64,000 nucleotides of DNA, taken from positions 291,462,001 to 291,526,000 of the forward strand of contig NC_091469.1 in the NCBI RefSeq assembly GCF_036971445.1. Reading direction: 5' to 3'. The position numbers and the translations under genes were made by a program. The notes beneath the pieces are model-generated. The model saw only the letters and a list, made by a program, of their open reading frames with translations, had not been told where the DNA came from and ran no database searches. Each line of letters opens with the position of its first letter. Position 1 is the stretch's first letter. Positions 2,793-59,873 of this stretch are shown piece by piece. Source of the DNA: Narcine bancroftii (Eukaryota).

Positions 2793-3416
2793 CTGCAAGG
2801 AAATCGCAGGAGATCGACATCAACCAGACCATCCCTATCGGCAAACCTCACGAGAGCTGCTGAGTCACTCTAGGACCAACCAATGGTGTGCTGCCTCTAA
2901 CATGTCCCTGCCTCTAACATGTCCCTCCCTCTTGTCCAACCATGGCTGGTGTTGAGTCCAGCAGCACTGCTGACACAGTGGGTTCCCAGTGGGGTCTTCA
3001 GACCGAAGACCAGCTGTGGAAGACACAATTGTACAATTGCTGTCTAGATACAGGAGGCATTTAGTCCATCCAACTCCTCCATTGGAACAATCCCATCTAT
3101 CCCATTTCTCAAGGACCTGAAACTTCTCCCACTTGGCACAGAGCACAGTTCCAGATGTATGGTGTTTGTGAGTGCTCTTTGCATTCCAGAGACCCCCGCA
3201 TCCTTGAACCTTCATTATCCACCCACCGACCTGTTACCGGTGACTGGTGACTGTAATGTTCCACCTGTTTCGAGAATGGAGAGCTCAGGTGCAGGCTCAG
3301 ACTGACCGATGGCAAGACACGACTTAGAGTCAGTGACCAACAGCGTTCTACCCCAGCTCTCTGTCGGAGGCACAGAGAAACCTACCAGTTGCCATCTCCG
3401 CAGAATCGTAACTTAC

Positions 3417-3636
3417 ATGGGGCCGTCTGCGATCAGTGCGAGGATGTGGCTTAGGTCCAGTGTGAACGTCTCCAGGTCAGGGTATGGGAGGCCTTTGGGC
3501 TCTCCCTGTTCCAGCCTCTCCTTGTTCTCATAGACAAAGATAACTCCTTCCTTCATCATGGCCACATAGTCCAAGTCCTCCGGGGCATCGCTGAGATCGT
3601 ACGGATCCTGACCATCTCCGGGGGCAGAGTGGACAT
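3417..3636 (-). CDS. AMPD3: AMPD3-like coding exon 5
   Basis: [13 protein letters not shown]...[24 protein letters not shown]. Acceptor ggccag|, donor |gtaagt. Confidence 0.93.
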
Positions 3637-3801
3637 CTGGCCAAGCGAGCACGGAACAGTTAGGCATTGGCTGAACAAATTTCAAACAGCAGGACGTCCA
3701 ATCACTGAACAGAGAACACCATAGGAACAGGCCCTTCAGTCCAACGTGTCTCTGCTGAATATGCTGCTCTAGTAAAACACAAAAATCTGCAGACACCATG
3801 G

Positions 3802-6800
3802 ATTTTTTTTTTCATTTAAGAACCCTTACTTGGGCACTTTATTGATTTTTCTCTGTCTTTTTTAGACAGTTTTGTTTACATTTCTTTATAGAGCTTCCCA
3901 CCTTATTCGTGGTTTCACTTTCTTTTTTTAAATTTTTTTATTTTTCACACTGTAAACCACATTGATCAAGATACATACATTTTTCTTTTCAAATATATAC
4001 TGTGTCGTTTTCTCCCCCCCTCCCTCTTCCTATCCCACCCTCACTACCTCCCCTCCCATTCATTTAAAGTTCAGAATCTAAGATACATTAAACCCGTCAA
4101 ACAATGTTGTCACTCAATAAAAATAAACAAGAAATTCCACTGAGTCAATTCTTTTCATTTCCTTCTCCTTCTGTCATTTTAGGTGGTAGATGTCCTCGGT
4201 AGGTTTTCTCTATTGTGTTTTATGTATGGCTCCCATATTTGTTCAAATATTGTAATATAATTTCTTAAATTATATGTTATTTTTTCTAGTGGAATACATT
4301 TATTTATTTCTATATACCATTGTTATATTCTCAAGTTATCTTCTAATTTCCAGGCTGACATAATACATTTTTTTGCTACAGCTAGGGCTATCCTAACAAA
4401 TCTATTTTGTGCACCATCCAAATCGAGTCCAAATTCTTTGTTTTTTATGTTACTTAAGAGGAAGATCTCTGGGTTTTTTGGTAAATTGCTTTCTGTGATT
4501 TTATTTAATACCTGGTTTAGATCTTCCCAAAATTTTTTCACTTTCTCACATGTCTAAATTGCATGAATTGTTGTTCCCATTTCTTTTTACAGCGAAAACA
4601 TCTGTCAGATACTGTTGGGTCCCATTTATTTAACTTTTGAGGTGTAATGTATAGCCTGTGTATCCAGTTATACTGTATCATACGTAACCTCGTGTTTATT
4701 GTATTTCTCAAAGTTCCAGAGCATAACTTCTCTCATGCTTCCTTCTTTATCTTTATGTTTAAATCTTGTTCCCATTTTTGTTTAGTTTTACCATTTGTTT
4801 CCTCATTCTCCTTTTCTTGCAGTTTAATATACATATTTGTTATAAATTTTTTGATTATCATTGTGTCTGTAATCACATATTCAAAATTACTTCCCTCTGG
4901 TAACCTCAGACTGCTTCCCAATTTGTCCTTCAAGTAGGATTTTAGTTGGTAGTATGCCAACACTGTATCTTGAGCTATATTATATTTATCCTTCATTTGT
5001 TCAAAGGATAGTAATCTATTTCCTGAAAAGCAATTTTCTATTCTTTTGATCCCTTTTTTCTCCCATTCTCTAAAGGAAAGGTTATCTATTGTAAAAGGGA
5101 TTAGCTGATTTTGCGTCAGTATTTGTTTTGATAATTGGTAATTTGTTTTATTCCTTTCTACATGAATCTTCTTCCAAATATTGAGCAGATGATGTAATAC
5201 TGGAGAATTCCTACGTTGTACCAATTTTTCATCCCATTTATATAATATATGTTCAGGTATCTTCTCCCCTATTTTATCTAGTTCTAATCTAGTCCAATCT
5301 GGCTTTTCCCTTGTTTGATAAAAATCTGATAGGTATCTTAATTGTGCGGCTCTATAATAATTTTTAAAGTTTGGCAGTTGTAAGCCTCCTTGTTTATACC
5401 ATTCTGTTAATTTATCTAGTGCTATCCTCGGTTTCCCCCCTTTCCATAAAAATTTCCTTATTATTTTCTTTAACTCCGTGAAGAATTTCTCCCTCAAATG
5501 TATTGGCAATGCCTGAAATAGGTATTGTATCCTTGGGAAAATGTTCATTTTAATACAGTTTATCCTTCCTATTAGTGTTAGTGGTAAGTCTTTCCAATGC
5601 TCTAAGTCGTTCTGTAATTTTTTCATCAGTGGATAATAATTGAGTTTATATAGATGGCCGAGGTTTTTATTTATTTGTATACCTAGGTAACGTATTGCTT
5701 GCATTTGCCATCTGAATGGTGATTCTATCTTAAATTTTGAGAAATCCGCATTATTCATTGGCATTGCTTCACTTTTATTTGCGTTAATCTTGTTACCTGC
5801 CATCTGAATGGTGATTCTATCTTAAATTTTGAGAAATACGCATTATTCATTGGCATTGCTTCACTTTTATTTGCGTTAATCTTGTAACCCGTCACTTCTC
5901 CATATTCCTTCAATTTCTTATGTAAATATTTTATTGATATTTCTGGTTCTCTTTAGTATACCATAACGTCATCTGCAAATAAACTGATTTTATATTCCTT
6001 GTCTTTTATTTTCATCCCTTTTATTTTATTTTCTGTTCTTATCAATTCAGCTAGTGGTTCTATAGCTAACGCGAACAATAAGGGTGATAGTGGGCATCCC
6101 TGTCTTGGTGATCTGCTTAAGTTAAATTGCTTTGATATATATCCATTTACTGTCACTTTCGCCAATGGCCCATTATATAATGCTTTAATCCAATTAATAT
6201 ATTTCTCTGGTAAACTGAATTTTTGTAATACTTTGAATAAATAATTCCGTTCTACTCTGTCAAAGGCCTTCTCTGCACCGAAAGCAACTGCTACTGTTGG
6301 AGCTTTATTTCCTTCTACTACATGAATTATGTTAATAAATTTACAAATATTGTCTGTTGTTCGTCTTTTTTTAATAAATCCAGTTTGGTCTAGATTTACT
6401 ATTTTTGTTACATAGTCGGCTAATCTGTTTGCTAATAGTTTAGCTATTATCTTATAATCTGTGTAAAGATATTGGTCTATATGACGCTGGTGCGAGTGGA
6501 TCTTTCCCTGTCTTTGGTATTACTGTAATTATTGCTGTTTTACATGAATCTGGTAAGCTTTGTGTTTTATCAATCTGGTTGATTACTTCCAGGAGGGGAG
6601 GAATTAATAAATCTTTAAATGTTTTATAGAATTCTATTGGGAATCCATCCTCTCCTGGTGTTTTATTATTTGGTAGTTTTTTTATTATCTCTTGTATTTC
6701 TACTATTTCAAATGGTTCTGTTAATTTATTTTGTTCCTCTATTTGTAATTTTGGTAGTTCAATTTTAGTTAAAAATTCATCTATTTTCCCTTCTTTCCCT

Positions 6801-9800
6801 TCGTTTTCAGTTTGGTATAATTGTTCATAGAATTCTCTGAAGTTTTCATTAATCTCTGTTGGATTATATGTGATTTGTTTGTCTTTTTTCCTTGATGCCA
6901 ATACCATTCTCTTAGTTTGTTCTGTCTTAAGCTGCCACGCTAGAATTTTGTGCATTTTTTCTCCTAGTTCATAATATTTCTGTTTTGTCTTCATTATGTT
7001 CTTCTCCACCTTATATGTTTGTAGTGTTTCATATTTTATTTTTTTATCTGCCAATTCTCTTCTTTTAGTTGTGTCTTCCTTCATTGCTAATTCTTTTTCT
7101 ATATTTGCTATTTCCCTTACCAACCGCTCTGTTTCCTGATTGCAGTCCTTCTTCATCTTGGTTACATAACTTATTATTTGCCCTCTGATGAACGCTTTCA
7201 TTGTGTCCCATAGTATAAACTTATCTTTCACTGATTCCATATTTATTTCAAAGTACATTTTAATTTGACTTTCAATTAATTCTCTAAAATCCTGCCTTTT
7301 AAGTAGCATGGAGTTTAATCTCCATCTATACATTCTTGGAGGGATGTCCTCTAACTCTATTGTCAATATCAGGGGTGAGTGGTCCGATAATATTCTAGCT
7401 TTATATTTTGTTTTTCTTACTCTGTCTTGCATATGAGCTGATAACAGGAATAGGTCTATTCTTGAGTATGTTTTATGTCTACCCGAATAATATGAATATT
7501 CCTTTTCCTTTGGGTGTTGTTTCCTCCATATATCCAAAAGTTGCATTTCTTGCATCGATTTAATTATAAATTTGGTTACCTTGTTCTTTCTGTTAATTTT
7601 TTTCCCAGTTTTATCCATGTTTGAATCCAAATTAAGGTTGAAATCCCCTCCTATTAGTATGTTCCCTTGCGTGTCTGCTATTGTTAAAAAAATATCTTGC
7701 ATAAATTTTTGATCTTCTTCGTTAGGTGAATATACATTGAGTAAATTCCAAAACTCCAAATATATCTGACATTTTATCATTACATATCTCCCTGCTGGAT
7801 CTATTAATTCCTCTTCTATTTTAATTGGTACATTTTTACTGATTAATATAGCTACTCCTCTAGCTTTTGAGTTATATGACGCTGCTGTTACATGTCCTAC
7901 CCAATCTCTCTTTAATTTCTTGTGCTCCATTTCAGTTAAATGTGTTTCTTGCACGAATGCTATATCAATTTTTTTCTTTTTTCAGTAAATTTAGCAGTTT
8001 CTTCCTTTTGATTTGGTTATGTATTCCGTTAATATTTAAAGTCATATAGTTCAACGTAGCCATTTCATACTTTGTTTATCTTTCCTTTCCGTTTCCTCAT
8101 CATCACCTTTCCTTCTTATCCATTTCTGCTTTCTTGTTTTGAACACTTTATAAGACAACATTTCTAAAACATCCAACATTTCTCTTATTCTCCTATCTAA
8201 AATTTCTTTAACCCCACTATCCCCTCCCCTTCCTGAGTTGCCCTTTATCCCTTGTCGGGCAACCACATCTCCCCTCTCCATTTGGATTTGCGAATTCACT
8301 CACAAGCGTCAACTGATTTCGCAGTGACTGTAACTCCTCCCCACCCAGCCCCCCCCAGAAAAGATTTTAATTTTCATATATAACAAAGGTCACTCTCTTA
8401 ATTCCCTCCTTACTTCCTCTCTTCCCTTTCTTTCCCTTATTAATTCTTATCTATACTCTATATATTTTCCTTTAAATACAGATNNNNNNNNNNNNNNNNN
8501 NNNNNNNNNNNNNNNNNNNNNNNNNNNNNNNNNNNNNNNNNNNNNNNNNNNNNNNNNNNNNNNNNNNNNNNNNNNNNNNNNNNNNNNNNNNNNNNNNNNN
8601 NNNNNNNNNNNNNNNNTTACTCTCGTTACATGTCTTCATCTCTCTGCCTGTTTTGTAGTTGTTCTGCAAATTTTCATGTTTCCTCCGGAACTGAGAATAG
8701 TCTGTTTTGCTGCCCTGGAATAACTATTTTAAGTACCGCTGGGTACTTTAGCATAAATTTATATCCTTTTTTCCATAGGATTGCTTTTGCTGTATTAAAC
8801 TCCTTTCTCTTCTTCAGGAGTTCAAAACTTATGTCTGGATAGAAAAAAATTTTTGACCTTTGTATTCCAGTGGCTTTTTGTCTTTTCTTATTTTCTTCAT
8901 TGCTTTCTCCAATATATTTTCTCTTGTTGTATATCTTAAGAATTTTACTAAAATGGATCTTGGTTTTTGTTGTGGCTGTGGTTTCGGGGCTAATGTTCTA
9001 TGTGCCCTTTCTATTTCCATTCCTTCCTGTAATTCTGGTCTTCCTAGGACCCTGGGGATCTAATCTTTTATAAATTCTCTCATATTCTTGCCTTCTTCAT
9101 CTTCCTTAAGGCCCACTATCTTTATATTATTTCTTCTATTATAGTTTTCCATTATATCTATCTTCTGAGCTAACAGCTGTTGTGTCTCTTTAACTTTTTT
9201 ATTAGATTCTTCTAATTTCTTTTTTAAGTCCTCTACTTCCATTTCTACGGCTGTTTCTCGTTCTTCCACCTTGTCCACTCTTTTTCCTATTTCCAACATG
9301 ACCATCTCTAATCTATTCATTTTTTCTTTTGTACTTTTAATTCTTCTTTTTATTTCACTAAATTCTTGTAATTGCCATTCTTTTACTGATTCCATATATT
9401 CTTTAAAAAAATATATATCCATTTTCTTGCCTTTCTCTTCTTCTTCCATTTCTCTATGTTCTTCTTCTTCCTCTGGGTTGGTCATCTGTTGTTTCCTTGT
9501 TTTCTTTTTACTTTCTTCTTTCTTGTTCTCGTTGTTTTCTGTCTTCTCTTCCTGTTGTTGTGTTGCAGCTGTCATCCTCAGCTGTGGAGATCGACTCCTC
9601 AGCTGGTCCCCCCTCCCGTCAGTGTTTTTTTTTCATGCGCGGTTGCGCACTTTTACTCGGCTCCGCGAGCCATTTTTGTAGTCCCGAGCTCGGGACTTCA
9701 ACTGACCTTAGGGAGTGGGCTTCTCTCTCCGCGGTGGGCCTCCTCGGACAGGTAAGGCCTTCACCTTCTTCTTCCAACATTCTTTCTTCTTCTCTTCTTC

Positions 9801-9967
9801 CCGTTGCTTTCGACTTTTCTTTCTTCGTTGCCATTTTCTTCCCACCTTTACTTTCACTTTGTTTTAATTTTTATGTTTGTGCCTTTGTGTTTTGTGTGTT
9901 TTTTTAAAACTTTTCCGGAGAGGGCTGGAGTTCCCCGACCGGCCACTACTCCATCACGTGACTCCTC
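3802..9967 (-). mobile_element. Full-length, disabled L1-clade LINE (ORF1 + EN/RT ORF2) in AMPD3-like intron 4
   Basis: ORF1 pieces at 9834-8630 (coiled coil, RRNNIKIVGL, IERAHR). ORF2 pieces at about 8070-4320 (QETH, GGDFN, SDH endonuclease; RQGCPLSP, FADD RT). 12-bp TSD CAGACACCATGG at 3790-3801 and 9968-9979. Poly(A) at the left end. Multiple frameshifts. Confidence 0.93.
8484..8616. other. Assembly gap (N run) inside the L1
   Basis: Run of N bases. Confidence 0.99.
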
Positions 9968-10560
9968 CAGACACCATGGTTGAAGTAAAAACACAATGCT
10001 GGAGAAACTCAGCAGGACAAACAGTATCCTTTATATAGCAATGGTAAAAAAACATCACCTACATTTTGGGATAGAGCCCTTCATCAGGGTATGGGAAAAA
10101 TGTCAGCAGGCACCTGAATAAAGAGGTAGTGGGGGAGGCATAGGGGAAGGATAATAGTCCCACAGGCAGGAGGTAATAGGTAGAGAAGGGAGGGGGGGGC
10201 ACAACAGCAAGCAGGGGGAGGAGGGATGGCTGGGTGAATAGAGAGGGAAAGGGTGGAGAACAGAGGGAAAGTAGACAGAGGAAGGGAAGAGAGGGGGGAA
10301 AAGGAGAGCAGGTTAGCAGAAACTGGAAAAAGTCAATGTTAATGCCATGCGGCTAGAGAGTGCCCAGGTAGAAAATCCTTTCATTTGCAGGTAATCTTGG
10401 TGGGATAGTACATTAGGCCATGGACAGACATGAGCATAGAATTGAAATGGTTGTTCACTGGGAGATTCCAAGTCACTGGTGCAGACAGAGCAAAGGTTGG
10501 TCAGCGAAGCCATCTCCCAGTCTGCATCCAGTCTCTCTGATTTAGAGAAGTCAGCTCTGC
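9968..10560 (-). mobile_element. Penelope-like element 3' remnant (host of the L1 insertion; its tip is at 3772-3801)
   Basis: Terminal repeat aatgctggagaaactcagcagg and degenerate GIY-YIG tail. Inverted homolog of 11170-11560. Confidence 0.6.
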
Positions 10561-10868
10561 TGCTTTCTCCTGACAAATGCCCCACCTCCCCTTCAATTTC
10601 ACTTGTCTCTATGGAAACCTCTTAACTTGCTGTAACACCATGCCCTGCACTCTGACTTGTTGTACCACTGCACTCTGACTTGTTGTACCACTGCACCCTG
10701 CGCTCTGTGGCTCACTGTAACACAGCACCCTGCACTCTTGCTTTCCTATTTAAGTGTGGGTAGGCTTGCCTGATAGCACGTAAATCAAAGTTTTTCATTG
10801 TGCTTTTGGTCATCAATAGTTCATCATGAGACCGAGACCACGGCCACTGCATTGTTGTCTCCACCTAC

Positions 10869-11034
10869 CTGGCATAACATTGCCATCCTCCTGCCAGTCA
10901 CCACTGTGGAATGACCGCATGTACTGTGCTGTGATCCTGGGGAAGGTCTGGTAGGCGAGCTGCATGTACTTCTCCCGAATGAATAAAGCTTTCATCAGTC
11001 CTCGGGCTGCGTGTTCGTAGTCCTCCACAGTGAC
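10869..11034 (-). CDS. AMPD3: AMPD3-like coding exon 4
   Basis: [38 protein letters not shown]...VMP. Acceptor ccccag|, donor |gtaggt. Confidence 0.93.
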
Positions 11035-11169
11035 CTGGGGAAAGCACCAGCGAGACACAGACTTTACCACAAACCACCCTTGGCCCACAACTCCCTCCCC
11101 TACCCCCCTTCCACTTCTGAGTCACACTCCCACATTGTCAACCATTTCAATTCTGGGTCACACTCCCAT

Positions 11170-11560
11170 GCTCACATGTCTTTCCATAGCCTTATGTACT
11201 ATCCCAACCTGACCACCCGCAGATTGGAGGAACAGCACCTTACTTTCTGTCTGGGCACTCTCCAGCCAGATGGCATTAACATCAACTTCTCTGCTTTCTG
11301 CTAAACTTGCTCGCCTTTTCTTCCCCCTCTACCCACCCAGCTATTTCTCCTCCCCTGATCACTGCTGACCCTCCCTCCCTTCTCCACCTATCATCTCCTC
11401 CTGCCTTTGCCTCCCCCCCCCCCCCCCATCTTTTGGTTTGGACACCTTTCGAAATTCGCTCATACCTTTGCTACATAAAGGACATTGTTTGACCTGCTGA
11501 GTTTCTCTAGCTTTTTGTGTTTTTACTTCAACCATGGTGTCTACAGATTTTCGTGATTTA
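11170..11560 (+). mobile_element. Penelope-like element 3' remnant
   Basis: RRLEEQHLTFCLGTLQPDGININFS (GIY-YIG C-terminal tail) followed by the same terminal repeat. Confidence 0.65.
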
Positions 11561-12118
11561 CTCCTCCACCTCTCCCTGAATGCTGCCCCTTCCCCCCCCA
11601 ATCGTGTTCACCTCCCACCAGTCCATCAGACATGGTATAAAATGCCAAGGTGCTGACTCCAGCTCCTGAGAGGACAGGTGATGGACAGAGGCTGGAAGAG
11701 CAGAGGGTTCAGGAAGGAATTCCAGACCATATCTTGGCAGTGGATCTACAGTACTGGGGAGTCCCCAGGAAATGAGAGATTGGAAAGGGTTATAGGGAGA
11801 GTTGTAGGCAATGCCAGCGAATCGCACTGCATAGAAACATGTATGGCGATCATCTATGCAGTTCCCATTCACCTGCATTCCCATTCCCATTCCATATCAG
11901 TTTCTGAAGAGGGCATGCAAAATCATTGAGGACCCCTTCCACCCCACTCACAGCATCTTTCAGCTGCTCCCATCAGAGAAGATATACAGGAGGATCAGAG
12001 CCAGCACCTCCAGGCTGAGGAACAGCCACGGGCAGTGAGAACACTGAATGACCAAAGGAACAGCTCACACTCACCATCTGAAACTCTCATATTCATGAAA
12101 CTATTTATTTGTATAGAT

Positions 12119-12483
12119 CAGTGGTTCTCAACCTTTATCTTTCCACTCACATCCCACCTTAAGTAATCCCTATGTCATCGGTGCTCTGTGATTAGTAAGA
12201 GATTGCTTAAGGTGGGATGTGAGTGGGAAGGGAAGGATGAGAATCACTGCCCTTGACCCAATTATGACTGAAAGATTTTGCTTGAGAAAAATTGTTATTG
12301 GCCCATTTCCTTTGGAGTTCTGAAACCGTGCACAATTAGGTACGATTAAAACAATGGTTTTCAACCTTTTTCTTTTCACCCACATCCTACCTCAAGCAAT
12401 CCCTTACTAATCACAGAGCACCGATGGCATAGGAAATAGTTAAAGTGATATGTGAGTGGAAAGAAAAAGGTTGAGAACCACTG
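12119..12483. mobile_element. hAT-like MITE
   Basis: TIRs CAGTGGTTCTCAACCTT / AAGGTTGAGAACCACTG. Non-coding, internally palindromic. Confidence 0.8.
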
Positions 12484-13949
12484 AGATGAAATACTCATCC
12501 TGCATATGTGTTTTTTGTTTGTATGTGTGTTACATCTGGTTGTGTGTCTGTGAGTTCTTGCACCAACATAGGCCTATCTAGGGTATGGCAGGTGGGGCAG
12601 AGAACAGGGGCGCCACTTGCAGAGGGGCCCCACTGTCTTCGCCTTACACCCCCCCCACCTAGTATCTGAGTCCCTAGCCCAATAATTAATCTCCATCCCA
12701 GGAGCGCAGTGCTACGCTGTTGGGACTGAGCACCGAGGACCAGAAAATGCTGTTCTGTCAGGTTGTACTTGTGCAATCAGATGACAGCAAACTTGATATG
12801 CGTTATCCCCACTTCCTCCAACAGCTCTTTCCACACACCCTCCACCCTCTGTTTTCCCCTCTGATCCCTTTTAAATCTTCCTCCTCATCACCTTAAACTC
12901 TGTCCCCTCTAGTTTGGGCTCTCCAACCCCGAGGAAAAGCTACGACCATTCATCATGACTATGTCCCTCATGATTTTATGCCTTCCATGCCATCATTCCT
13001 TAGCCTCCTACTCTCCAGAGAACAAAAGCCGCAGCCTATCCAGCTTCTCTTTATAACTCAAGCCCACCAGTCCCTGTCACACTCTTGTGAATCTTTTTCA
13101 CTCCATTTTTATTCTTCCTAGAAATGGGTGACCAAAACTTCACATAATGAGTGTGGTCTCACCAGTGTCTGTGATATAACATCCCAGCTTCTGTACTTAG
13201 TGTCCTGACCAATGGTCAGACACCACCTCCACCATGCTGTCTACCTTTGTCGCAGAAAGGTTTAGAGGGATTTGGGCCAAATGCAAGTAAATGGAACTAG
13301 TTCAGGTTGGCACCTTGTTTGGCATGGAGGAGAGAGGCAGAGATTTCTCAGACATTTGCAATCAAGATACGTAGATATTACATTGGTGAGGAGATGTGGG
13401 CCAAGGAGAGGGAGGGGGCTAGAAAGAGTCAGCCTAGTCAGTTGAAGGCAGGATCACTATTGACAGATTTTAGAGCCCATAGGGGACCAGAGGGAGGTTA
13501 CAGAGACAGAGAGGGGTTTAGGAGACTGGAGGGGGTTGCCAAGATGGGGAGGGGTGCAGGGGACTGGAAGGGGTTACAGAGACGGGGAGGGGTGTAGAGG
13601 ACAGGAGCAGCTTTCAGGTGCTTGGACGCAGATAATGCGCCAGCAGACCCAGCTGGGGAAGTGCAGCTAGGACGTTCAGGTGGCCGCAGAGAAGACACCT
13701 TTCTGTCACCTGAAAGTCCCAGCTGAAGGAGAGCCATGTCCGAGCGAATGCCGGCTCCTGTGGACTGTGGCTGTAGTCCCACTGTTGCTTTCAGGTGCAA
13801 CAGGGGATTCTCAGAACCAGAGATTATACCTACAGGAGGAGGGTTAGGTAAGTGCTCCTCCTTGCCAGGTTCTCCACTTTCAGATGGCCTCCCGACAGCT
13901 GCATAGGGGTAGAATATGCGGCTTTACATTGGGGTATTTTGGCCACCTG

Positions 13950-14120
13950 GAAGTGCCTAGAGACAGGGAAGGGTGTAGGGGACTGGAGGGGGTTACAGAA
14001 TCAGGGAGGGGGTTACAGAGACAAGGAGGGGTGTAGGGGACCAGAGGGGGTTACAGAGACGGGTATAGGGAATACAACAATGTTACAGAGACAGGGAAAG
14101 GTATAGGGGCTGGAGGATTC
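13950..14120. repeat. G-rich satellite-like repeat (ggggttacagagacagggaggggtgtaggggactgga)
   Basis: The same unit also occurs at about 13480-13605 and 14725-14905, flanking AMPD3-like exon 3. Confidence 0.7.
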
Positions 14121-14156
14121 TGTGTGTCAAAATCAGAGGGCGAATGTGGTTCTTAC

Positions 14157-14340
14157 CCCAGCACAGTAATCTCCACTGATGGTCACACGTTGAAACTCAG
14201 GCACTTCATAGGGTGGCTGGATCCCAGACTGAATGGATATCTGTGAAGTCATGGACGGGGAGGCCAATGAGAATGCCCCATCAATGACTGGAATCTGTAA
14301 GGACAGCGAATGGGATCGAATCAGCCTCAAATTCTTCTTC
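14157..14340 (-). CDS. AMPD3: AMPD3-like coding exon 3
   Basis: KKNLRLIRSHSLSLQIP...PEFQRVTISGDYCAG. Acceptor ctacag|, donor |gtaaga. Confidence 0.93.
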
Positions 14341-15387
14341 CTGTAGAAGAATCCAGAGCACAGAGCAAAATGAAAGCATGGTAATCTCAGCATCCCTGCA
14401 TTGGTAGCAGGGTTTTAGTTGAAAATGTTACATTGAAAAGTTCAGAGACAGCTGTGCCCAACAATTCTGTAGATTGCACCTTTCATATCATAACCCTTCA
14501 ATGGAGATTTCTCAAACAATGGAGATATTACTGGGGAGGTGGTCTGGGCCGGGGAGAGAGAGGGGGCTAAAAAGATGGGGATGAGAAACAGTGGAAGTGG
14601 AGTAAGATGGGAGAGGGGAGGGGAGGGAGGAGAGAGGGAGTGGCAGAGTGAGCCCAGTCAGCTGAAGGCAGGGTCACTATTGTCAGATGCTGGAGCCCAT
14701 GAACAGGTAGGGAAATCACAGATGGGTAACAGAGACGGAGGAGTGTAGGGACTGGAGGGGGTTCAGAGACTGGGAGGGGGGTAGGGGGCTGGAGGAGGGG
14801 ACAAAGTCGGAGGGGTGTAGGGGACCGGAGGGGGGTTACAGAGACAGGGAGGGTTCTAGGGGACTGGAGGGGGGGGGGGGTTACGGGGACGGGAGGGTGT
14901 AGGGAAGAAAAGTTGATTCAAACAGGAATGGATGGATTTCCGGTCATTGAAGGAATGAAGGGTCACTGACATTGTGCTGGAACACGGTGTTGAGGTCAAT
15001 TAACCACAATGTTGATGAGTGACAGGACAGGTTAGAGGGGCCAAATGTACTTCCTGTTCCTGATTCTTCTGTTCGTACATAATCTGAATCTCCTTGTGCA
15101 TGGTCCCATCACACACCCAGGCCAGTGACGGTTGGACTCAGAGTGACTCATTCTGCACGAAAACAGTAATTATGCCATGTGTGGGGGAGGGGTGGTGGTG
15201 GGAAGGGGGTTAACGAACACTGCTGTCTCCTCGTGCACCATCTCAGCTTCACCAAGGTGGCTGAAATGGTCACTTCCAGGAGTCAGCGTGGGAAGATCAA
15301 AGCCCATGGAAGAAGGGGTTGATAGCTCCAACCCCGGTGCAGAGTTCAGCCCAGCTGAGTGCTCCCCTACCCAATGCATGGACAGAC

Positions 15388-15613
15388 CTTCTGGCAGACA
15401 TCTCCGACTGTTGCTCAGCGATTTCTCTAAGCAACTCCCTCTCCTTCGCCTCCTGTTTGCCAATTGGGCAATCTTCGGCAATGTCGAACAGAGACAGCAC
15501 ATCCTTAGTGTCTTCTTCACGCAGAACAGAGGCAAACACCTTCTCCGCGATGATCCTCACGTGCTCATCCTCCTCCGACTGGGCAGCTTTTGGGAACTGT
15601 CTCGGCATCTCCA
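15388..15613 (-). CDS. AMPD3: AMPD3-like coding exon 2 (contains the MPRQFPK start at 15608)
   Basis: [37 protein letters not shown]...EDCPIG matches the AMPD3-type N-terminus. Pyrimidine tract plus tcag| acceptor, donor |gtctgt. Confidence 0.92.
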
Positions 15614-27394: not shown

Positions 27395-27610
27395 AAATTT
27401 AGACATATAGCACAGTAACAGGGCCTTCTGGCCCATGAGCCCGTTCCGCCTAAATACCCCAATTAACTCTGAACCCCCATACGTTTTGAAGGGTTGGAGG
27501 AAACCGGAGCCTCTGGGGAAAACCCACGCAGGCACAGACAGCACAGGATTCGAACCCTGGTCCCCATCGTTGGTGCTGTAACAGTGTTGCGCTAACCGCT
27601 ACGCTGACCT
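27395..27610 (-). mobile_element. HE1/V-SINE-like SINE (representative copy)
   Basis: Recurrent ~220-bp unit (aaatttagacatacagcac...gaaacccacgcag...ttcgaaccc). Other copies at about 26697-26945, 36930-37140, 42405-42605, 42680-42890 (opposite strand) and 55245-55460. Confidence 0.6.
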
Positions 27611-27884
27611 TGCCGCCCCAATATTTAGTATCTTTTTTCCCCCACACAGGTGATTTAACGTACCCTGCTGGAGTCAGATGTTTGATTACAAAAGGCCCTT
27701 TGTGGCTGCAGTAGGAATCTGTGTGTCTGTACATCGCACTTGTGTGTGCATTACAGTAAGCTCGTTCTTGCAGGGCAGCCACCTTGGGAAGCATCCTGGA
27801 AGATTCTCAAATGTCCCAGTGAGAGTCCCACTTCCCTGCAGGATGGAGGTTGCAGTGAGGAAGGAGACATTGTTTCAAATCACC

Positions 27885-27890
27885 TTTATT
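27885..27890 (-). terminator. Candidate HRAS polyadenylation signal (AATAAA)
   Basis: tttatt on the plus strand, in unique sequence downstream of HRAS, after a candidate terminal-exon acceptor at 28210. Confidence 0.35.
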
Positions 27891-30588
27891 TCACCATGGA
27901 AATGTACAACGTGTTAAATAAAGCAAGAGCAGAGGCAGCTGGTGCCCAGGGACTGGCAAGATCGGGCTGGGGGTGGACACGTGACCGAGTGAAGAATCCA
28001 GAGATGGTGGAGCTCTCAGCCCTGGCCCATCCCAACAGGTGGCAGACTTCCAGCCCAACCCCCTGGGCAATGGGTGAGCCGTTACCCCACCCCTCCGGGG
28101 TCAAAGGCAGCTCGAGCTCCGGCCGAGACCAGGTAACGTTCTGGCCCTGTGGATGCACACCACAGCAGTGTCCCCCAACCCAGGGCTCAGTATGGCAAGG
28201 AAAGGGTAACTGTGGGCAGTGAAGTTGCCTCTTTTCAAGGGGGGGGGGGTGGGAGGTCTACACAGGGCACCACCCATCCCCATCCTAACCACAGTGCCCT
28301 TCCCACCGTGGGGTGGGGAAGAGACCTGCGTACAGGGGGTGAGGAGAGAGAGACATGTACAGAGAGTAGGGAGAGGTCTGTGCATAGGAGATGGGGGTGA
28401 GACAGGCATACAGTGGGGAAAAAGATCCATGCACGGGGGGATAGGGAGTGGGGAGGGGTCCATGCATAGTGGGGTGGGAGGAGACCTGAATACAGGGGTG
28501 GGGGGTGAGCTGGGCAGGTAGCTGTAGGAATATCTCAGTGTGACCAGCCCCACATTGGGATCCTTCAGGTCAGGGAGAGCTTGCCAGTCCCAGACACCAC
28601 CCCCACCTCCACCAGCTGCTGTGCCTGCCTCACCCTTGGGCGGCTGGAGGAATCATCCACTGCTCCACGCACCTGCAGGGACAGAGACAAAGATCGTTAC
28701 ACACCCTCCGTGCAGTGACTCTCTGCACCACAGCTCCCTTCCCCACCTCCCACACACCGCAGAGGGTGGGATAACGAGGGGAAAAGGGAGATTATTCTCT
28801 GTACATCAAATGGAGTCACTGAAAGCTGGGCTTCAGCTATGATCTTCCAACAGGAGGTGAAGAAATAGCTTCCATGGCAGTGGGGAGGGGTTAAATCGAG
28901 ACAAGTTGCTGCTAGTAGGAGCTAGGTGGGGAGAGTGAGCTTCCCTTGTGTTGCTGCGGGAGACATGGCTCGGCAGCGCCATCATGTGATGACAGCTGCA
29001 GTTGCAATCGAGTTATCCTTGACCCTTCTGCAGTCAGACCTGTCTCCTCATTCCCCCTCCACAAGATCAAAGCTCCCGTCCCCTCCTGCCACCCCCCTAT
29101 TTGCAGAGACCACCTTCCCCTCCCTGCGCAAGGTGGCCCACAGCACTCTACCCTAAGCATGTGAGCAGCCCGTGCCAGCTGACGGGAGGCTGGGAGAGAA
29201 GCTGTGAACCTCTCGGATGTTATTGAGACTCAGATATATTCATGGGGAAGCAGCTGTGGCCCTTGTGGTTGAAGGGACTGAGGGAAATGGAGAGAAGGCC
29301 CCTTAATTGTAGATTGTGGTGCAGAACGAAGGGCTGAATGGCTTTGTGTCTGTATCTAGTTAGTCAAAGATGTCAGTCTCCAAGATTCACCACTCAGCCC
29401 TGGATATCACCGTCTCTGAGCTCCTCACCATCCATCCCCAGGGGGTTTCCAGGAGCAGCTTGGGCTTCCTGTAGAGTGTCCCACCCCCAATACCCCGAGG
29501 ACTCTCCCCGTCTGCAAGGGAGGACAGAGCAGATGGTATTGCTGGTCCCCATGCCCCACACTTAACACTTCCTCCCTCGCCACCACCACCCTGCACGTCT
29601 TCACAAGACACCTCTGACAAATCTACCCCCCCTGCAGGTTCCCCTCCATGCCTCACACACCCCCCCAACCTCCCCCCCCCCCCCCCAGCAGTCTCTAAAC
29701 TCTGGTACATCCTCACACCAGCACCTTCCCCGTATGGACCGCAGCGGTTCAACTCATTTCCCAAACCCCCACTTTCGAGGGTTGGGGCCTGTTCAGTACT
29801 CTATCAAAAATATAAAGAGTTTTCACAGGAGCTGCTAATTTGTGACCCCATCTATATCTTCCAGCAGTGATGAGGCAAATAACAGGATTGTCTGCTCTTG
29901 ACTCAGCCCTCCTCTGAGAGGATACACAGGGCCTGGGGGTAACGCGATCTGAGGGAGTTGACCCCCTTCGCTCTCAAACTGTGAGCCACACCACTCCTGG
30001 CTCTGCGCATTCTCGGATGCTGTGCTAATCCCCAGCCAACATCGTCGTCCTCCTTGTTCTCCGCTGACCCTCACCTTGGCCAGCTCCCTCCCTTGGCCGA
30101 CTGCCCTTCTTCTGCTCCAGTATCCTCTCCCACCCCCCCACCAACTCATGATAACATTATCCAAGTGCTTCTCCCAACCATCTCCACCAGTGTCCACCCA
30201 ACATCCACACTGGATAAGCAAATTCTCTCCATGGTATGACAGTATCCAGCACCTGTGGGGATTGGTAGAGGCCGGATAAGTGAATCTTCCGGTTGCTTCA
30301 GATTGTGTGTTGCATGATTGGTGAACTGACGACAAGGCAGACCAATTTTAAACTTCTGAATTTTTTACCTATTTATTTTCTGCAATTGTTTTGCCGGTTG
30401 CTTGAGGCTGCTGGTTCCTTCAATTCCGGATAACGGGGGTTTTACTGTATTGGGAAGACAGAATCCATCATCTTCCACCCATCATGGACTGCTCTCCCCA
30501 ACTTGGACCCCCACTGGTGATTAGGGAGGGGTAGGGAGGAGGAGCGATTGACTGCTGGCACTGCCTCCGGATTATATACTTACCCTGG

Positions 30589-30708
30589 TCACAATATCAC
30601 ACATTTACAGTTATTGCAGTCTTGGCCACTGTCGTCGGGAGGATTCGACTTCCTGACTTTGTGCTGACTAATCTCTCGCACCAAAGTGTAGAATGCATCC
30701 TCCACGCC
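30589..30708 (-). CDS. HRAS: HRAS coding exon 4 (hypervariable region, CaaX, stop)
   Basis: Not in the ORF track frame. Read manually as [39 protein letters not shown]. Acceptor tttcag|; donor |gtaagt 5 nt after TGA. Total protein 189 aa. Confidence 0.95.
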
Positions 30709-31179
30709 CTGAAACCCAGAGCAGACAGGTCAGGAGGAACTGAGAGGTCAGGGGCTGGGCTGCAGCAGGACACTAAGGCTGTAGGGGCGGGGACAGATCG
30801 AGGGAGTAGGTGAGGGTGCAGCAATAGACAGCGACTTGGAAAGAGAGGAGTGCCACTGGGGGAACAGATCTGTGCACGATGGCGAGAGGCTGAGAAGTGA
30901 TCACAGGTTTTCCTCACGCAAAAATCTGTGAACACCAATGCACGGTTCCAACAATAATCTCGCTCACTGCAACATCACAGGGGGCTGGTGGAGTGTGGGT
31001 AGGTCCAGTCTCCCCACACAAGATGGGATATGCTTGCATTAGAGGGCTCGCCTGCTGGGGTGCCCTTGCTCAAGTTCAGAAGTCGTACCAAACACTACTG
31101 AACCACAATTCCGGAGATGTAGGTTCCATCCTGACCTCGGATGCGGTCTTTGTAAAGTTTATATGTGAATCCCTTCATC

Positions 31180-31605
31180 CTAGAACCCATCCAGTAAATC
31201 TTCACACTCCCTCCAACCCAGAACATGTCCATAAATCTTCACACACTCCCTCCATCCCAGAACCAGTCCACAAATCTTCACACACTCCCTCCATCCCAGA
31301 ACCAGTCCACAAATCTTCACACGCTCCCTCCATCCCAGAACCAGTCCACAAATCATCACACACTCCCTCCATCCCAGAACCAGTCCACAAATCTTCACAC
31401 ACTCCCTCCATCCCAGAACCAGTCCACAAATCTTCACACACTCCCTCCATCCCAGAACTAGTCCACAAATCTTCACACACTCCCTCCATCCCAGAACAAG
31501 TCCAGTAAATCTTCACATACTCCCTCCATCCCAGAACCCATCTATAAATCTTCACACATTCCCTCTATCCCAGAACAGGTCCAGTAAATCTTCACTCTCC
31601 CTCCA
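31180..31605. repeat. 33-bp minisatellite in the HRAS intron between coding exons 3 and 4
   Basis: Unit cagtccacaaatcttcacacactccctccatcccagaac-like (approximately 39 nt by ORF periodicity of 13 codons), about 11 copies. Exact unit length needs a tandem-repeat finder. Confidence 0.85.
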
Positions 31606-32081: not shown

Positions 32082-32537
<456 letters not shown>

Positions 32538-33844: not shown

Positions 33845-34183
<339 letters not shown>

Positions 34184-35967: not shown

Positions 35968-36270
<303 letters not shown>

Positions 36271-37238: not shown

Positions 37239-38250
37239 TCTTTCTTGGGCTTGGCTTCGCGGACGAAGATTTATGGAGGGGGTAAAAGTCCACGTCAGCT
37301 GCAGGCTCGTTTGTGGCTGACCAGTCCGATGCGGGACAGGCAGACACGGTTGCAGCGGCTGCAGGGGAAAATTGGTTGGTTGGGGTTGGGTGTTGGGTTT
37401 TTCCTCCTTTGCCTTTTGTCAGTGAGGTGGGCTCTGCGGTCTTCTTCAAAGGAGGTTGCTGCCCGCCAAATTGTGAGGCGCCAAGATGCACGGTTTGAGG
37501 CGATATCAGCCCACTGGCAGTGGTCAATGTGGCAGGCACCAAGAGATTTCTTTAGGCAGTCCTTGTACCTTTTCTTTGGTGCACCTCTGTCACGGTGGCC
37601 AGTGGAGAGCTCGCCATATAACACGATCTTGGGAAGGCGATGGTCCTCCATTCTGGAGACGTGACCCACCCAGCGCAGCTGGATCTTCAGCAGCGTGGAC
37701 TCGATGCTGTCGACCTCTGCCATCTCGAGTACTTCGACGTTAGGGATGAAAGCGCTCCAATGGATGTTGAGGATGGAGCGGAGACAACGCTGGTGGAAGC
37801 GTTCTAGGAGCCGTAGGTGATGCCGGTAGAGGACCCATGATTCGGAGCCGAACAGGAGTGTGGGTATGACAACGGCTCTGTATATGCTTATCTTTGTGAG
37901 GTTTGTCAGTTGGGTGTTTTTCCAGACTCTTTTGTGTAGTCTTCCAAAGGCGCTATTTGCCTTGGCGAGTCTGTTGTCTATCTCATTGTCGATCCTTGCA
38001 TCTGATGAAATGGTGCAGCCGAGATAGGTAAACTGGTTGACCGTTTTGAGTTTTGTGTGCCCGACGGAGATGTGGGGGGGCTGGTAGTCATGGTGGGGAG
38101 CTGGCTGATGGAGGACCTCAGTTTTCTTCAGGCTGACTTCCAGGCCAAACATTTTGGCAGTTTCCACAAAGCAGGACGTCAAGCGCTGAAGAGCTGGCTC
38201 TGAATGGGCAACTAAAGCGGCATCGTCTGCAAAGAGTAGTTCAAAGAGTA
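37239..38250 (-). mobile_element. 5'-truncated RTE-clade LINE in HRAS intron 1
   Basis: Uninterrupted ORF from ELLFADD through FTYLG, AFGRL, LRWVGHV to a C-terminal CxxC...HxxxC. Candidate TSD GTTTGAGT at 37231-37238 and 38251-38258. Confidence 0.88.
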
Positions 38251-49540: not shown

Positions 49541-50783
49541 TCACACAGACAAGAACTGCGACTGTTGGCATCTTGAGCAGACAATAGAGAGGCTGAACAA
49601 CATCCATGGAGGGAAATGGTCAGTGCTTCGGGAAGAGACTCTTTTTCAGGAGTCCAGTTTGTGAACACAAGCCTGAGTGGTCAGTTGGAATGTTTAGGTT
49701 AAGGCATTAACTCGCAGGCAGGCAAAAAGTTTCCAAACGGAGTACAAACCCGCTGGTTTATAAAATGCCAATCGTTACAGAAATGCAACAGCATATCTGT
49801 AAGAATTTACATTTCCTCAGCCCAGGGCTTGACGCGGAACACTGGCCCATCCCTCTGCCTCCACAGACGCTGAGATCCCCCAGCAGTTTGGCCAGAAAGG
49901 GCGTGCACGCTGACTGCTGGATCCAGAGGCAGCGGGAGGGATTCAGGCATAGCCAGCTGAGAAGGTGCTGCCCCACCCCGCCTTCCCCTCAAACCCGGCC
50001 CCATTGCCTCGACCGCTCCACGCCTGCAAGGCAGGCACAGCGTCGGGGTTTTGGTGGACAAGGCTAATTCACAACCACTCCAGACCAACACTGCGGGTGC
50101 TTCAGCCATAACAGCGCCTGCTCCGGTGTGCTTAGCCAGCGCGGCGCCCCGAATCTCGAGTGGATGACAGGTCGCTCTCGCTTCCCCTCACTCCACATTC
50201 CCATCTGAAGGGTGAACGCTGCAACAACAGCGTGCAGGTAGATGTCTGCCTCTTGCCCGCAGCATCTCCACTGCCTCTCCTGCATTGGAATATTGATCCC
50301 ATTTACTCTGATAAGCAGAACTGCCCAGTGCCCAAATTGATTACTAATCAATTGATAAACAAAACCAGGCCGCGCCTCCCTTACCTTGTAAAGAAACAAA
50401 TACAAAACGTTCTCAGGAACAAATACAAAACACTTATTTTTAAAACTTTTTCCCCCGAAAGCCGAATATTTGTAAATGAGATGTTATTACCAAACATTTG
50501 TATTATACAAGTGAGATGTTAAATTCACCCTCCATTCTAAGAGGGTTTGCAACCATGTGCGTGGAGCCGTGTTGTGCGGTGGGCTCGTCGCCCAGCTGCC
50601 GGGGCGGCACCCAGCGATGACATGCCTTGTAACTGTGCCTGTGTGAAGTGTTCACTGAGTGAGGAGTGCGGTGGGTTAGTCGCCCAGCAGCCGGGGCGGC
50701 ACCCAGTGCTTTGTAACTATGTGCATGTAGTGCTCCCTGAGCCGCGTCGGGGGTTCGCTTCCCAACAAGCGGGGCTGACTTAC

Positions 50784-51240
50784 CAGAAACTGCGCCGAGG
50801 AAACGCCGCAATCAGAAGCAGATCGAGAGACAACACATAGCAGTGCTGGGCGCCGGCGGACGCGGAGCTTGGCGGCTTCTGTCGTTCCCCTGGCTGCGGC
50901 AGCAGGAGTGGAGCCGACGCGGCACCCCCACTGCACGCTGTCTCGGTACGGTGCCTTCTGCCCCTTCCACTACTCCGGTGCCCGCACCCCCGCCGGTCTA
51001 CGCTGCCCGGCAGCCGCTTCCAGCACTCCGGTGCCCGCACCCCCGCCGGTCTACGCTGCCCGGCTGCCGCTTCCAGCACTCCGGTGCGCAATCCCTCAAG
51101 CACGGGTGCCTGCCCGGCTCTTCGGTCCTTCGGTTCCCTCCTCCCCCCCCCCAACCCCCGGACCCGGTACCCGCTCCTCGCCACCCGGCTCTCTGATGCC
51201 GGCTGCCGCCTCCAAGCCCTCCGCGGCCAGGACAATGTAA
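50784..51240 (-). other. HRAS: Probable non-coding first exon (5' UTR) of HRAS; 5' end approximate
   Basis: CpG-rich segment ending in a strong minus-strand donor CTG|gtaagt at 50784/50783. CCAAT boxes lie just upstream. Confidence 0.55.
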
Positions 51241-51680
51241 AGTTAGATTGAGATGTAAGGTCCGCCTCAACCTAACTCGCTCGCTCCGTCTTATTGGTCC
51301 GGACAGGCTGCAGCAACACCGACACCTGATTGGCTCACATCCATCATCGAGAAAGCGGTTCGAGCGGGAATAACAACCGAGTTATAAGAACAACGAAGCA
51401 GACGAAGTACACGTGTATTTTCAACGTTTCGATGATTAAAATGTGATAGACTTGATTTATCTCCATATTTGCCTTTTTGAGCAAGATGCGTTCACTCATT
51501 GGAACAAGTGAACGATGTTTACTGACGGCGCACGCGCAGGTGAAAGGTGCCGTGGCCGACGGGAGTTGAAGTTTAATGTGAGGGATGGACATAGCATTTC
51601 CAGGACTACAGGTTCCATCATGCACCTCTCCCCGCCCGGAAAAGGAGGGACGCCTGGTGGTTGCTAAGGGAAACTGGCCA
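51240..51680. promoter_or_regulatory. Bidirectional HRAS/LRRC56 promoter in a CpG island
   Basis: ATTGG boxes at 51293, 51329 and 51498. NRF1-like GCGCACGCGCA at 51528-51538. ZNF143-like GACTACAGGTTCCATCATGCA at 51604-51624. GC box at 51631. RFX X-box-like GTTGCTAAGGGAAAC at 51660-51674. Divergent splice donors at 50783 (minus) and 51707 (plus). Confidence 0.65.
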
Positions 51681-51794
51681 GGCTGGTGTAGCTGTCGAGA
51701 GAACGGGTGAGTGGTGGAGGCGGCTGCACCGGGTATAGGGGATGCCTGGCCTGAACCTGGGTATGGGAGGGCACCAGGTCCAGGTCCGGGCCTG

Positions 51795-53650
51795 GGGAAA
51801 AGGAGGGAGGGGGAGAAGGGGGATTGGGAAGGAGGGAGGGGGAGGATTGGGTGGGAGGGAGGGAGAGGATTGGGTGGGAGGATTGGGAGGGAGGGAGGAT
51901 TGGGAGGGAGGGAGGATTGGGAGGGAGGGAGGGAGGATTGGGAGGGAGGGAGGGAGGATTGGGAGGGAGGGAGGGAGGATTGGGAGGGAGGGAGGGAGGA
52001 TTGGGAGGGAGGGAGGGAGGATTGGGAGGGAGGGAGGGAGGATTGGGAGGGAGGGAGGGAGGATTGGGAGGGAGGGAGGGAGGATTGGGAGGGAGGGAGG
52101 GAGGATTGGGAGGGAGGGAGGGAGGATTGGGAGGGAGGGAGGGAGGATTGGGAGGGAGGGAGGGAGGATTGGGAGGGAGGGAGGGAGGATTGGGAGGGAG
52201 GGAGGGAGGATTGAGAGGGAGGGTAGGGGGGGATTGGGTGGGAGGGAGGGTAGGGGGGGATTGGGTGGGAGGGAGGGTAGGGGGGGATTGGGTGGGAGGG
52301 AGGGTAGGGGGGGATTGGGTGGGAGGGAGGGTAGGGGGGGATTGGGTGGGAGGGAGGGTAGGGGGGGATTGGGTGGGAGGGAGGGTAGGGGGGGATTGGG
52401 TGGGAGGGAGGGTAGGGGGGGATTGGGTGGGAGGGAGGGTAGGGGGGGATTGGGTGGGAGGGAGGGTAGGGGGGGATTGGGTGGGAGGGAGGGGGGGATT
52501 GGGAGGGAGGGAGGGGGGGATTGGGAGGGAGGGAGGGGGGGATTGGGAGGGAGGGAGGGGGGGATTGGGAGGGAGGGAGGGGGGGATTGGGAGGGAGGGA
52601 GGGGGGGATTGGGAGGGAGGGAGGGGGGATTGGGAGGGAGGGAGGGGGGGATTTGGAGGGGGGGAGGGGGGGGAGGGGGGGATTGGGAGGGTGGGGTGAG
52701 AGGGGGATTGGGGAGGCCAAGGGGGGGAGGGAGGGGGAAATGGGGGGAGCCCGGGAGGGGGAAATGGGGGGAGCCCGGGAGGGGGAAATGGGGGGAGCCC
52801 GGGAGGGGGAAATGGGGGGAGCCCGGGAGGGGGAAATGGGGGGAGCCCGGGAGGGGGAAATGGGGGGAGCCCGGGAGGGGGAAATGGGGGGAGCCCGGGA
52901 GGGGGAAATGGGGGGAGCCCGGGAGGGGGAAATGGGGGGAGCCCATGGAGGTGGGGTCCGGGAAGAGGAGGGGATTGGATGGAGGGGGCCCGGGAAGAGG
53001 AGGGGGCCTGAGAAAAGGAAGGGATTATATTGGGGGGCCCCGGAGAAAGGAGGGGATTGGATTGGGGGGACCCCGGAGAAAGGAGGGGATTGGATTGGGG
53101 GGGCCCCGGAGAAAGGAGGGGATTGGATTGGGGGGCCCCGGAGAAAGGAGGGGATTGGATTGGGGGGGCCCCGGAGAAAGGAGGGGATTGGATTGGGGGG
53201 GCCCCGGAGAAAGGAGGGGATTGGATTGGGGGGGCCCCGGAGCAAGGAGGGGATTGGATTGGGGGGGCCCCGGAGCAAGGAGGGGATTGGGGGGGCCTGG
53301 GGAAAGGTGGGGATTGGGGGGGCCGGGGAAAGGAGGGGATGGGGATGGCAGCGGCCCTGGGCAGGGGATGGGGAGTGGCCCTGGGAGGGGATTATAATGG
53401 GGGGGCCTCGGAGAAAGGAGGGGATTGGGGGGTGCCGGGGAAAGGAGGGAATGGGGGATGGGGATGGTGGCGGCCCTGGACAGGGGATGGGTAGTGGCCC
53501 TGGGAGGGGATTATAATGGGGGGGCCCCGGAGAAAGGAGGGGATTGGGGGTGCTTGGAGAAAGGAGGGGATTGGGGGGCCCGGGGAAAGGTGGGAATGGG
53601 GAATGGCGGCGGCCCTGGGCAGGGGATGGGGAGTGGCCCTGGGAGGGGCA
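51795..53650. repeat. Compound G-rich tandem array
   Basis: Successive blocks of 21-, 27-, 24- and ~30-bp GGGA/GGGG-rich units. Confidence 0.95.
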
Positions 53651-59717: not shown

Positions 59718-59873
59718 ATGGAACTTCACCAATGCCCAGCCTTTATTATGAATAGAGGGACTACAACAGTCAGGGTGCTGGAGTTTGGACATCCTGGTTT
59801 ACTGAATCCCAAGCTGGATATTAAAGATGAAACTGCTCTTCTTATTGAAGAATATCTCTCCCCCTCCAAGCTG
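59718..59873 (+). CDS. LRRC56: LRRC56 first coding exon (exon starts at 59711; gene continues beyond the window)
   Basis: MELHQ...TVRVLEFGHPGLLNP...LLIEEYLSPSKL resembles the human LRRC56 N-terminus as I recall it (VRVRELSWQGLHNP...LVEEYLSPARL). Acceptor ttttcag|, donor |gtgaga. Head-to-head with HRAS as in human. Confidence 0.85.

What the first reader, a model, noticed from the sequence alone, without database searches (positions are those of the whole stretch)
30589..30630. HRAS ortholog ending in CVIL: predicted switch from farnesylation to geranylgeranylation
Seen in sequence: the last exon reads ...[17 protein letters not shown], keeping C181, C184 and C186 but ending in Leu. Established: human HRAS ends CVLS and is farnesyl-only; CaaX boxes ending in Leu are GGTase-I substrates, and engineered H-Ras-CVLL resists farnesyltransferase inhibitors. 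Inference: this is a natural, doubly palmitoylatable, geranylgeranylated HRAS with possibly different membrane trafficking. LRRC56 linkage supports HRAS orthology.
Basis: partly seen in the sequence, partly recalled or inferred. Interest (0 to 1): 0.75.

Follow-up and report, generated by a model that had tools for sequence, protein, structure and literature searches.

The report
Ray HRAS with shark-type lipid tail
This is the normal HRAS signalling gene of what is likely an electric ray; its spliced transcript ends in CVIL like HRAS of sharks and chimaera, so it is predicted to carry a longer (geranylgeranyl) membrane anchor than human HRAS, a group-wide quirk that is already in print.

Summary
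Four minus-strand exons (36111-30589, all GT-AG) encode an intact 189-aa RAS ending CNNCKCVIL*. A spliced contig spans the exon with no mismatch, and 2 of 4 runs join it to exon 3 and to a 3' UTR exon. It is HRAS: 174/189 identical to human HRAS, sister to bamboo-shark HRAS in a tree (99/97), and between LRRC56 and an AMP deaminase gene. It is not new. Garcia-Espana and Philips (PMC9882654) state that cartilaginous-fish HRAS is the vertebrate exception with a geranylgeranylation CaaX and list elephant shark CVIL and skate CVLL. Bamboo-shark HRAS has an identical exon 4. Human GGTase-I fully modifies a CVIL reporter but not CVLS; human FTase also accepts CVIL. Geranylgeranylation is therefore likely and escape from FTase inhibitors very likely, but neither is shown for the fish protein. 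Published H-Ras data point to a modest effect on trafficking. One unremarked detail: the same tails lose hydrophobic residues at 171 and 182, possibly in compensation. Already known; low interest.

The parts
36001..36111 (-). HRAS coding exon 1 (residues 1-37)
   Evidence: GT donor; Pfam Ras E 3.9e-10
33984..34162 (-). HRAS coding exon 2
   Evidence: AG/GT; Pfam Ras E 2.2e-19
32277..32436 (-). HRAS coding exon 3
   Evidence: Pfam Ras E 8.2e-14; its 3' end is the loose end of the exon 4 contigs in X1 and X2
30584..30708 (-). HRAS exon 4: last coding exon (residues 151-189, stop, 5 nt of UTR), holding the hypervariable region
   Evidence: best PDB sequence match full-length HRas, E 1.9e-16; 39 of 39 residues identical to Chiloscyllium HRAS P0230
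30592..30603 (-). CaaX box C186-V-I-L189; Leu codon TTG at 30594-30592
   Evidence: contig without mismatch
30607..30618 (-). C181-N-N-C184: the two cysteines that align to the palmitoylated cysteines of human HRAS (palmitoylation inferred)
   Evidence: alignment to human HRAS P0012
28673..30583 (-). 1911-nt GT-AG intron in the 3' UTR, starting 5 nt after the stop
   Evidence: joint in X1 and X2, 2 of 4 runs; ends read
27885..28672 (-). 3' UTR exon, down to an AATAAA at 27890-27885 (its use as the poly(A) signal is inferred)
   Evidence: contig depth in the thousands against tens in most of the intron; motif scan
59727..59873 (+). N-terminal coding stretch of LRRC56, divergent from HRAS
   Evidence: 49 of 49 residues identical to a Narcine bancroftii LRRC56 record, 76% to Amblyraja and Mobula records
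50001..52000 (.). CpG-rich stretch between HRAS and LRRC56; likely shared promoter region (inferred)
   Evidence: CpG observed/expected 0.82 and 0.66
3416..15608 (-). AMP deaminase gene downstream of HRAS (exons seen at about 15608 and 3416-3811; more near 1370-1520)
   Evidence: Pfam AMP_deaminase E 8.6e-17 for 3416-3811; motif positions

Best explanation
This is the intact, spliced HRAS gene of a cartilaginous fish (likely an electric ray), and its CVIL ending is the clade-wide CaaL tail that is predicted to be geranylgeranylated on C186 by GGTase-I rather than farnesylated. After prenylation the protein would be clipped by RCE1, methylated by ICMT, palmitoylated on C181 and C184 at the Golgi and cycled to the plasma membrane like other HRAS proteins (established pathway, inferred here). 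The C20 anchor would slow release of the depalmitoylated form modestly and make membrane targeting independent of FTase. Shown: gene, splicing, sequence, orthology, conservation across chimaera, skate, shark and this ray. Inferred: which lipid is attached in the fish, palmitoylation, any change in trafficking, and that Leu is the derived state (hagfish, lamprey and bony vertebrates have Ser).
For: Gene model and codon. Spliced contigs. 174/189 identity to human HRAS, 160/166 in the G domain; 185/189 to Chiloscyllium HRAS against 154-162 to NRAS, KRAS and KRASBL rows; tree pairs it with Chiloscyllium HRAS at 99/97 inside a 12-row HRAS group at 92/93. LRRC56 and AMP deaminase flank it, as in the synteny text of PMC9882654. 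That paper names cartilaginous-fish HRAS as the exception and lists CVIL (Callorhinchus) and CVLL (Amblyraja). Of 274 stored proteins, 136 have an HRAS-type tail; 130 end in Ser, 2 in Leu (the shark P0230 and a divergent 310-aa rodent hypothetical protein) and 4 in other letters. Human GGTase-I in yeast fully shifts a CVIL reporter and leaves CVLS unmodified; CVIL stays prenylated without FTase (PMC11152559 passages).
Against: [quoted passage not shown] No fish enzyme or fish protein was assayed, and I did not check the GGTase-I gene of this species (no genome held). The HRAS group in the tree falls just under the tool's support mark (92/93). Only four chondrichthyan HRAS tails were seen directly.
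Confidence: 0.8

Rival explanations
1. The CVIL tail is a dual substrate and in the fish is largely farnesylated or mixed, so the Ser-to-Leu change is close to neutral and no real lipid switch occurs.
For: FTase accepts CVIL, CVLL, CAIL and CCIL in vitro; RhoB (CKVL) and CVIL a-factor carry both lipids (PMC1175975). Yeast FTase cross-farnesylates CAIL and CTIL reporters (PMC4358939).
Against: CVIL is among the few motifs completely modified by low-level human GGTase-I and is the natural tail of yeast Rho5, treated as canonically geranylgeranylated (PMC11304957). Leu is kept in chimaera, skate, shark and ray, which argues against free drift.
Confidence: 0.17
2. The gene is not HRAS but KRASBL (which also ends in CaaL) or NRAS.
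For: KRASBL proteins end CIIL or CVIL and are often annotated 'HRas-like'. An AMP deaminase neighbour is shared with NRAS.
Against: No polybasic tail; two upstream cysteines; 185/189 identity to shark HRAS against 153-156 to the five full-length KRASBL rows and 156-162 to NRAS rows; tree position; LRRC56 is described as single-copy and linked to HRAS only.
Confidence: 0.01
3. The Leu codon is an assembly error, or transcripts end in another coding exon.
Against: Contig over the codon without mismatch, joined to exon 3 and the UTR exon; identical exon 4 in an independently sequenced shark.
Confidence: 0.01

Closest known systems
Cartilaginous-fish HRAS (Callorhinchus milii XP_007907535.1, Amblyraja radiata XP_032894766.1 in PMC9882654; Chiloscyllium P0230)
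   Same: CaaL tail, C181 and C184, S164, V168, S171; exon 4 identical to Chiloscyllium (39/39) and 37/39 to each of the two published sequences (compared by eye).
   Different: Four G-domain residues differ from Chiloscyllium (124, 127, 132, 138); skate ends CVLL.
Human HRAS (P0012)
   Same: 174/189 residues, four coding exons in phases 0/2/0, C181/C184/C186, LRRC56 neighbour.
   Different: Ends CVLS, which human GGTase-I does not modify; has R164, L171 and M182 where this protein has S, S and N.
KRASBL of non-mammalian, non-avian vertebrates
   Same: Classical RAS with a CaaL box.
   Different: Polybasic second signal instead of palmitoylation cysteines; separate branch of the tree.
R-Ras (RRAS)
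   Same: Works like it: geranylgeranyl CaaL (CVLL) plus palmitoylation, with palmitate needed for Golgi exit (PMC3442799).
   Different: R-Ras has one palmitoylated cysteine and is only 56-62% identical to classical RAS G domains as a group; this protein has two such cysteines and the classical RAS switch signatures.

Membership tests
Classical RAS oncoprotein subfamily | Signature residues 31-42 and 59-72 as given in PMC9882654 | tested here: met
   No difference from human HRAS before residue 121; signatures
Classical RAS oncoprotein subfamily | Four coding exons with introns in phases 0, 2, 0 | tested here: met
   Exons of 111, 179, 160 and 120 nt; rule
HRAS | Two cysteines upstream of the CaaX cysteine and a short basic patch (K/R-hydrophobic-K/R-K/R) | tested here: met
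   K167-V-R-K170, C181, C184; rule
HRAS | Groups with HRAS orthologues in a tree | tested here: met
   Sister to Chiloscyllium HRAS 99/97; HRAS group 92/93; 29 rows chosen by me from 274 stored proteins
HRAS | Linked to LRRC56 | tested here: met
   rule
KRASBL | Polybasic domain before the CaaX box, no palmitoylation cysteines | tested here: not met
   Tails compared
NRAS | One upstream cysteine, Met-ending CaaX, NRAS branch | tested here: not met
GGTase-I substrates | C-terminal Caa-Leu motif at the true end of the protein | tested here: met
   CVIL reporter data
GGTase-I substrates | Geranylgeranyl actually attached in vivo | not testable with these tools
   Needs lipid analysis or an enzyme assay
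Dually palmitoylated RAS | S-acylation of C181 and C184 | not testable with these tools
   Cysteines present; acylation inferred from human HRAS

The most novel reading that the evidence does not exclude
Cartilaginous fishes rebuilt the whole HRAS anchor as a unit: they gained the stickier C20 lipid and at the same time lost hydrophobic and basic residues nearby (L171 to S, M182 to N or S, R164 to S), which would keep net membrane affinity, and so the palmitoylation cycle, near that of farnesylated HRAS. That would be a natural, roughly 400-million-year-old test of whether RAS needs a weak anchor. Support: L171 in 38 of 38 and a hydrophobic residue at 182 in 35 of 38 distinct Ser-ending tails, R164 in 37 of 38, against S164, S171 and polar 182-183 in all four chondrichthyan tails seen. 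Against: one evolutionary origin, so co-occurrence could be chance; three Ser-ending tails also lack the hydrophobic 182; no assay.
Probability: 0.2. Interest if true: 0.45.

Novelty: already known. Interest (0 to 1): 0.15.

Why it matters
As a finding it adds one more ray to a published clade-wide exception. Its use is as a natural control: PMC9882654 argues that vertebrate RAS proteins needed the weaker farnesyl anchor, and chondrichthyan HRAS is the standing counter-example, which I found tested in no paper. A GFP-tail swap would show cheaply whether the lipid, or the neighbouring substitutions, changes the Golgi to plasma membrane cycle. It also predicts that shark and ray HRAS would not respond to farnesyltransferase inhibitors.

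Tried and rejected
Own-genome search for paralogues and for the GGTase-I gene: no genome held. No run on record as RNA was listed; the four laid are guessed RNA, and their canonical splice joints are what I rely on. X3 and X4 gave no joint at exon 4, which the tool's filter can cause. The exon 4 protein searches returned no chondrichthyan HRAS, because these sit inside larger clusters; one was reached through cluster members (15 of 173 members listed). A leucine-rich-repeat pattern scan of ORFs did not pick out LRRC56; the N-terminal stretch did. Pfam gave nothing for exon 4, the 15300-15728 ORF, the LRRC56 stretch or the two ORFs near 50100-50500. The journal version of the preprint (recalled as Oncogene 2023) is not held. 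Suppl. Fig. 6, the larger CaaX survey, is a picture and gave labels only, so I could not count its shark sequences. Searches for H-Ras-CVLL inhibitor resistance and for 'HRAS shark CVIL' (0 papers) gave no primary paper. Earlier scan notes: nothing. A joint in X3 from 27646 to about 21532 lies on a 6-nt shared word without GT-AG ends and was set aside as a likely chimeric contig. No structure or complex prediction was run: it cannot decide between prenyl lipids.

Full report
Observation. The minus strand carries a classical RAS gene in four coding exons, 36111-36001, 34162-33984, 32436-32277 and 30708-30589, with GT-AG introns in phases 0, 2 and 0; they give an open 189-residue protein ending CNNCKCVIL* with the last codons TGT GTG ATA TTG TGA. 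Exons 1-3 match Pfam Ras and exon 4 matches full-length HRas best among solved structures (E 1.9e-16, against 4e-05 for KRas4B).

Transcript evidence. Four public runs of one study hold the stretch; they are guessed to be RNA and are kept as contigs. Laid on 27500-31150, no run shows a differing letter. In X1 a 157-nt contig covers 30582-30711 without mismatch. X1 and X2 (2 of 4) skip a 1911-nt GT-AG intron that starts 5 nt after the stop, and both have a loose end at the exon 4 acceptor that matches the end of exon 3. So exon 3, exon 4 and a 3' UTR exon are spliced together and the Leu codon is in the transcript. X3 and X4 show no such joint, which the tool's removal of human-like contigs can explain. 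The study may be the source of the assembly, so this is a consistency check, not independent proof. Exon 4 is the last coding exon, not the last exon.

Identity. The protein is 174/189 identical to human HRAS (160/166 in the G domain). Against 28 stored proteins that I chose to span the paralogues it is 185/189 identical to Chiloscyllium HRAS, with all of exon 4 identical, 169-178 to other HRAS, 156-162 to NRAS, 154-159 to KRAS and 153-156 to the five full-length KRASBL rows; the tree pairs it with Chiloscyllium HRAS at 99/97 inside an HRAS group at 92/93. On the plus strand 59727-59873 encodes 49 residues identical to a Narcine bancroftii LRRC56 record and 76% identical to skate and manta records, which makes the source likely an electric ray. 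An AMP deaminase gene lies downstream on the HRAS strand and a CpG-rich stretch lies between HRAS and LRRC56. This is the neighbourhood given for HRAS in PMC9882654. KRASBL, the other CaaL-ending vertebrate RAS, is excluded by tail and tree.

What is known. The preprint by Garcia-Espana and Philips (PMC9882654; I read parts 1, 2, 3 and 6 of 6 of the text, part 1 of 5 of Suppl. File 1, and the text layer of Suppl. [quoted passage not shown] Its file lists elephant shark HRAS ending CVIL and thorny skate HRAS ending CVLL, and hagfish and lamprey HRAS ending in Ser. The finding is thus a rediscovery. My own tally agrees: of 274 stored proteins 136 have an HRAS-type tail, 130 end in Ser and 2 in Leu, one the shark and one a divergent rodent hypothetical protein. 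With jawless and bony vertebrates on Ser, Leu is most simply a single change on the chondrichthyan stem (inference). The images of Suppl. Fig. 6 and the unread parts of Suppl. File 1 may hold more shark sequences or remarks than I saw.

Mechanism. Established pathway: CaaX prenylation, aaX removal, methylation, then palmitoylation of C181 and C184 and cycling between Golgi and plasma membrane (PMC3442799 passages). For the exact motif, human GGTase-I expressed in yeast completely shifts a CVIL reporter and does not touch CVLS, and CVIL remains prenylated without FTase (PMC11152559 passages); CVIL is also the tail of yeast Rho5 (PMC11304957 passages). Against exclusivity, CVIL is an FTase substrate in vitro and CVIL a-factor carries both lipids (PMC1175975 passages), and related CaaL motifs are cross-farnesylated in yeast (PMC4358939 passages). 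I put mainly geranylgeranylated at about 0.8 and prenylation that survives FTase inhibition at about 0.9; both are inferences from other enzymes and reporters. On trafficking the evidence is for a small effect: a farnesyl-to-geranylgeranyl H-Ras mutant is cited as not changing retrograde Golgi trafficking (second-hand citation of Rocks 2005, which I did not read), and GFP-CLLL recovers at the Golgi only twofold more slowly than farnesylated constructs (PMC2171405 passages). The same R-Ras paper suggests the prenyl motif may matter for anterograde sorting, so a difference is not excluded.

A detail not remarked on in the parts I read. All four chondrichthyan tails seen also carry S164, S171 and two polar residues between the palmitoylation cysteines. 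Among 39 distinct tails matched by a fixed pattern (126 records), the 38 Ser-ending ones have L171 in 38, R164 in 37 and a hydrophobic 182 in 35; hagfish and lamprey keep a hydrophobic residue at both places (read). The pattern requires several fixed residues, so it favours typical tails, and the changes have one origin. Compensation for a stickier lipid is therefore a hypothesis (about 0.2), but an easily tested one.

Verdict. Real, expressed, orthology secure, lipid prediction reasonable but untested, and already in print as a clade-wide trait. No paper testing the fish protein came up in searches, which cover only open-licence PubMed Central and bioRxiv. Novelty: already known. Interest 0.15.

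Noticed in passing
window 27663-26172, minus strand: A second GT-AG splice, from beyond the AATAAA of the HRAS 3' UTR exon to an exon starting at 26171, appears as a loose end in X1 and X2. It may be a longer HRAS 3' UTR isoform (then likely a target of nonsense-mediated decay), a read-through towards the AMP deaminase gene, or that gene's 5' leader.
   Followed up: partly
window 30667-30613, minus strand (residues 164-182): Chondrichthyan-specific R164S, L171S and M182N accompany the CaaL tail; L171 is otherwise invariant in 38 of 38 Ser-ending tails.
   Followed up: partly
window 31170-31595: 39-nt tandem repeat, 10.9 copies, 91% matches, in HRAS intron 3.
   Followed up: no
window 37295-38263 and 4733-9632, minus strand: Reverse-transcriptase-like retrotransposon ORFs: a 322-aa ORF with a sub-threshold RVT_1 hit between HRAS exon 1 and the CpG-rich stretch, and a fragmented LINE-like element inside the AMP deaminase gene (read by eye).
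   Followed up: no
window 51344-53758: Long G/C-skewed low-complexity repeat tract next to the CpG-rich stretch, giving spurious proline- and glycine-rich ORFs.
   Followed up: no
window 28238: One extra G in a homopolymer run of the 3' UTR in one contig of each of the 4 runs: allele or assembly slip, non-coding.
   Followed up: no
P0136, P0113, P0063 (stored proteins): A few divergent HRAS-like records (a rodent, a bat, one unnamed) align with CVLL or CVLF at the CaaX place; they look like retrocopies or gene-model artefacts, not checked.
   Followed up: no
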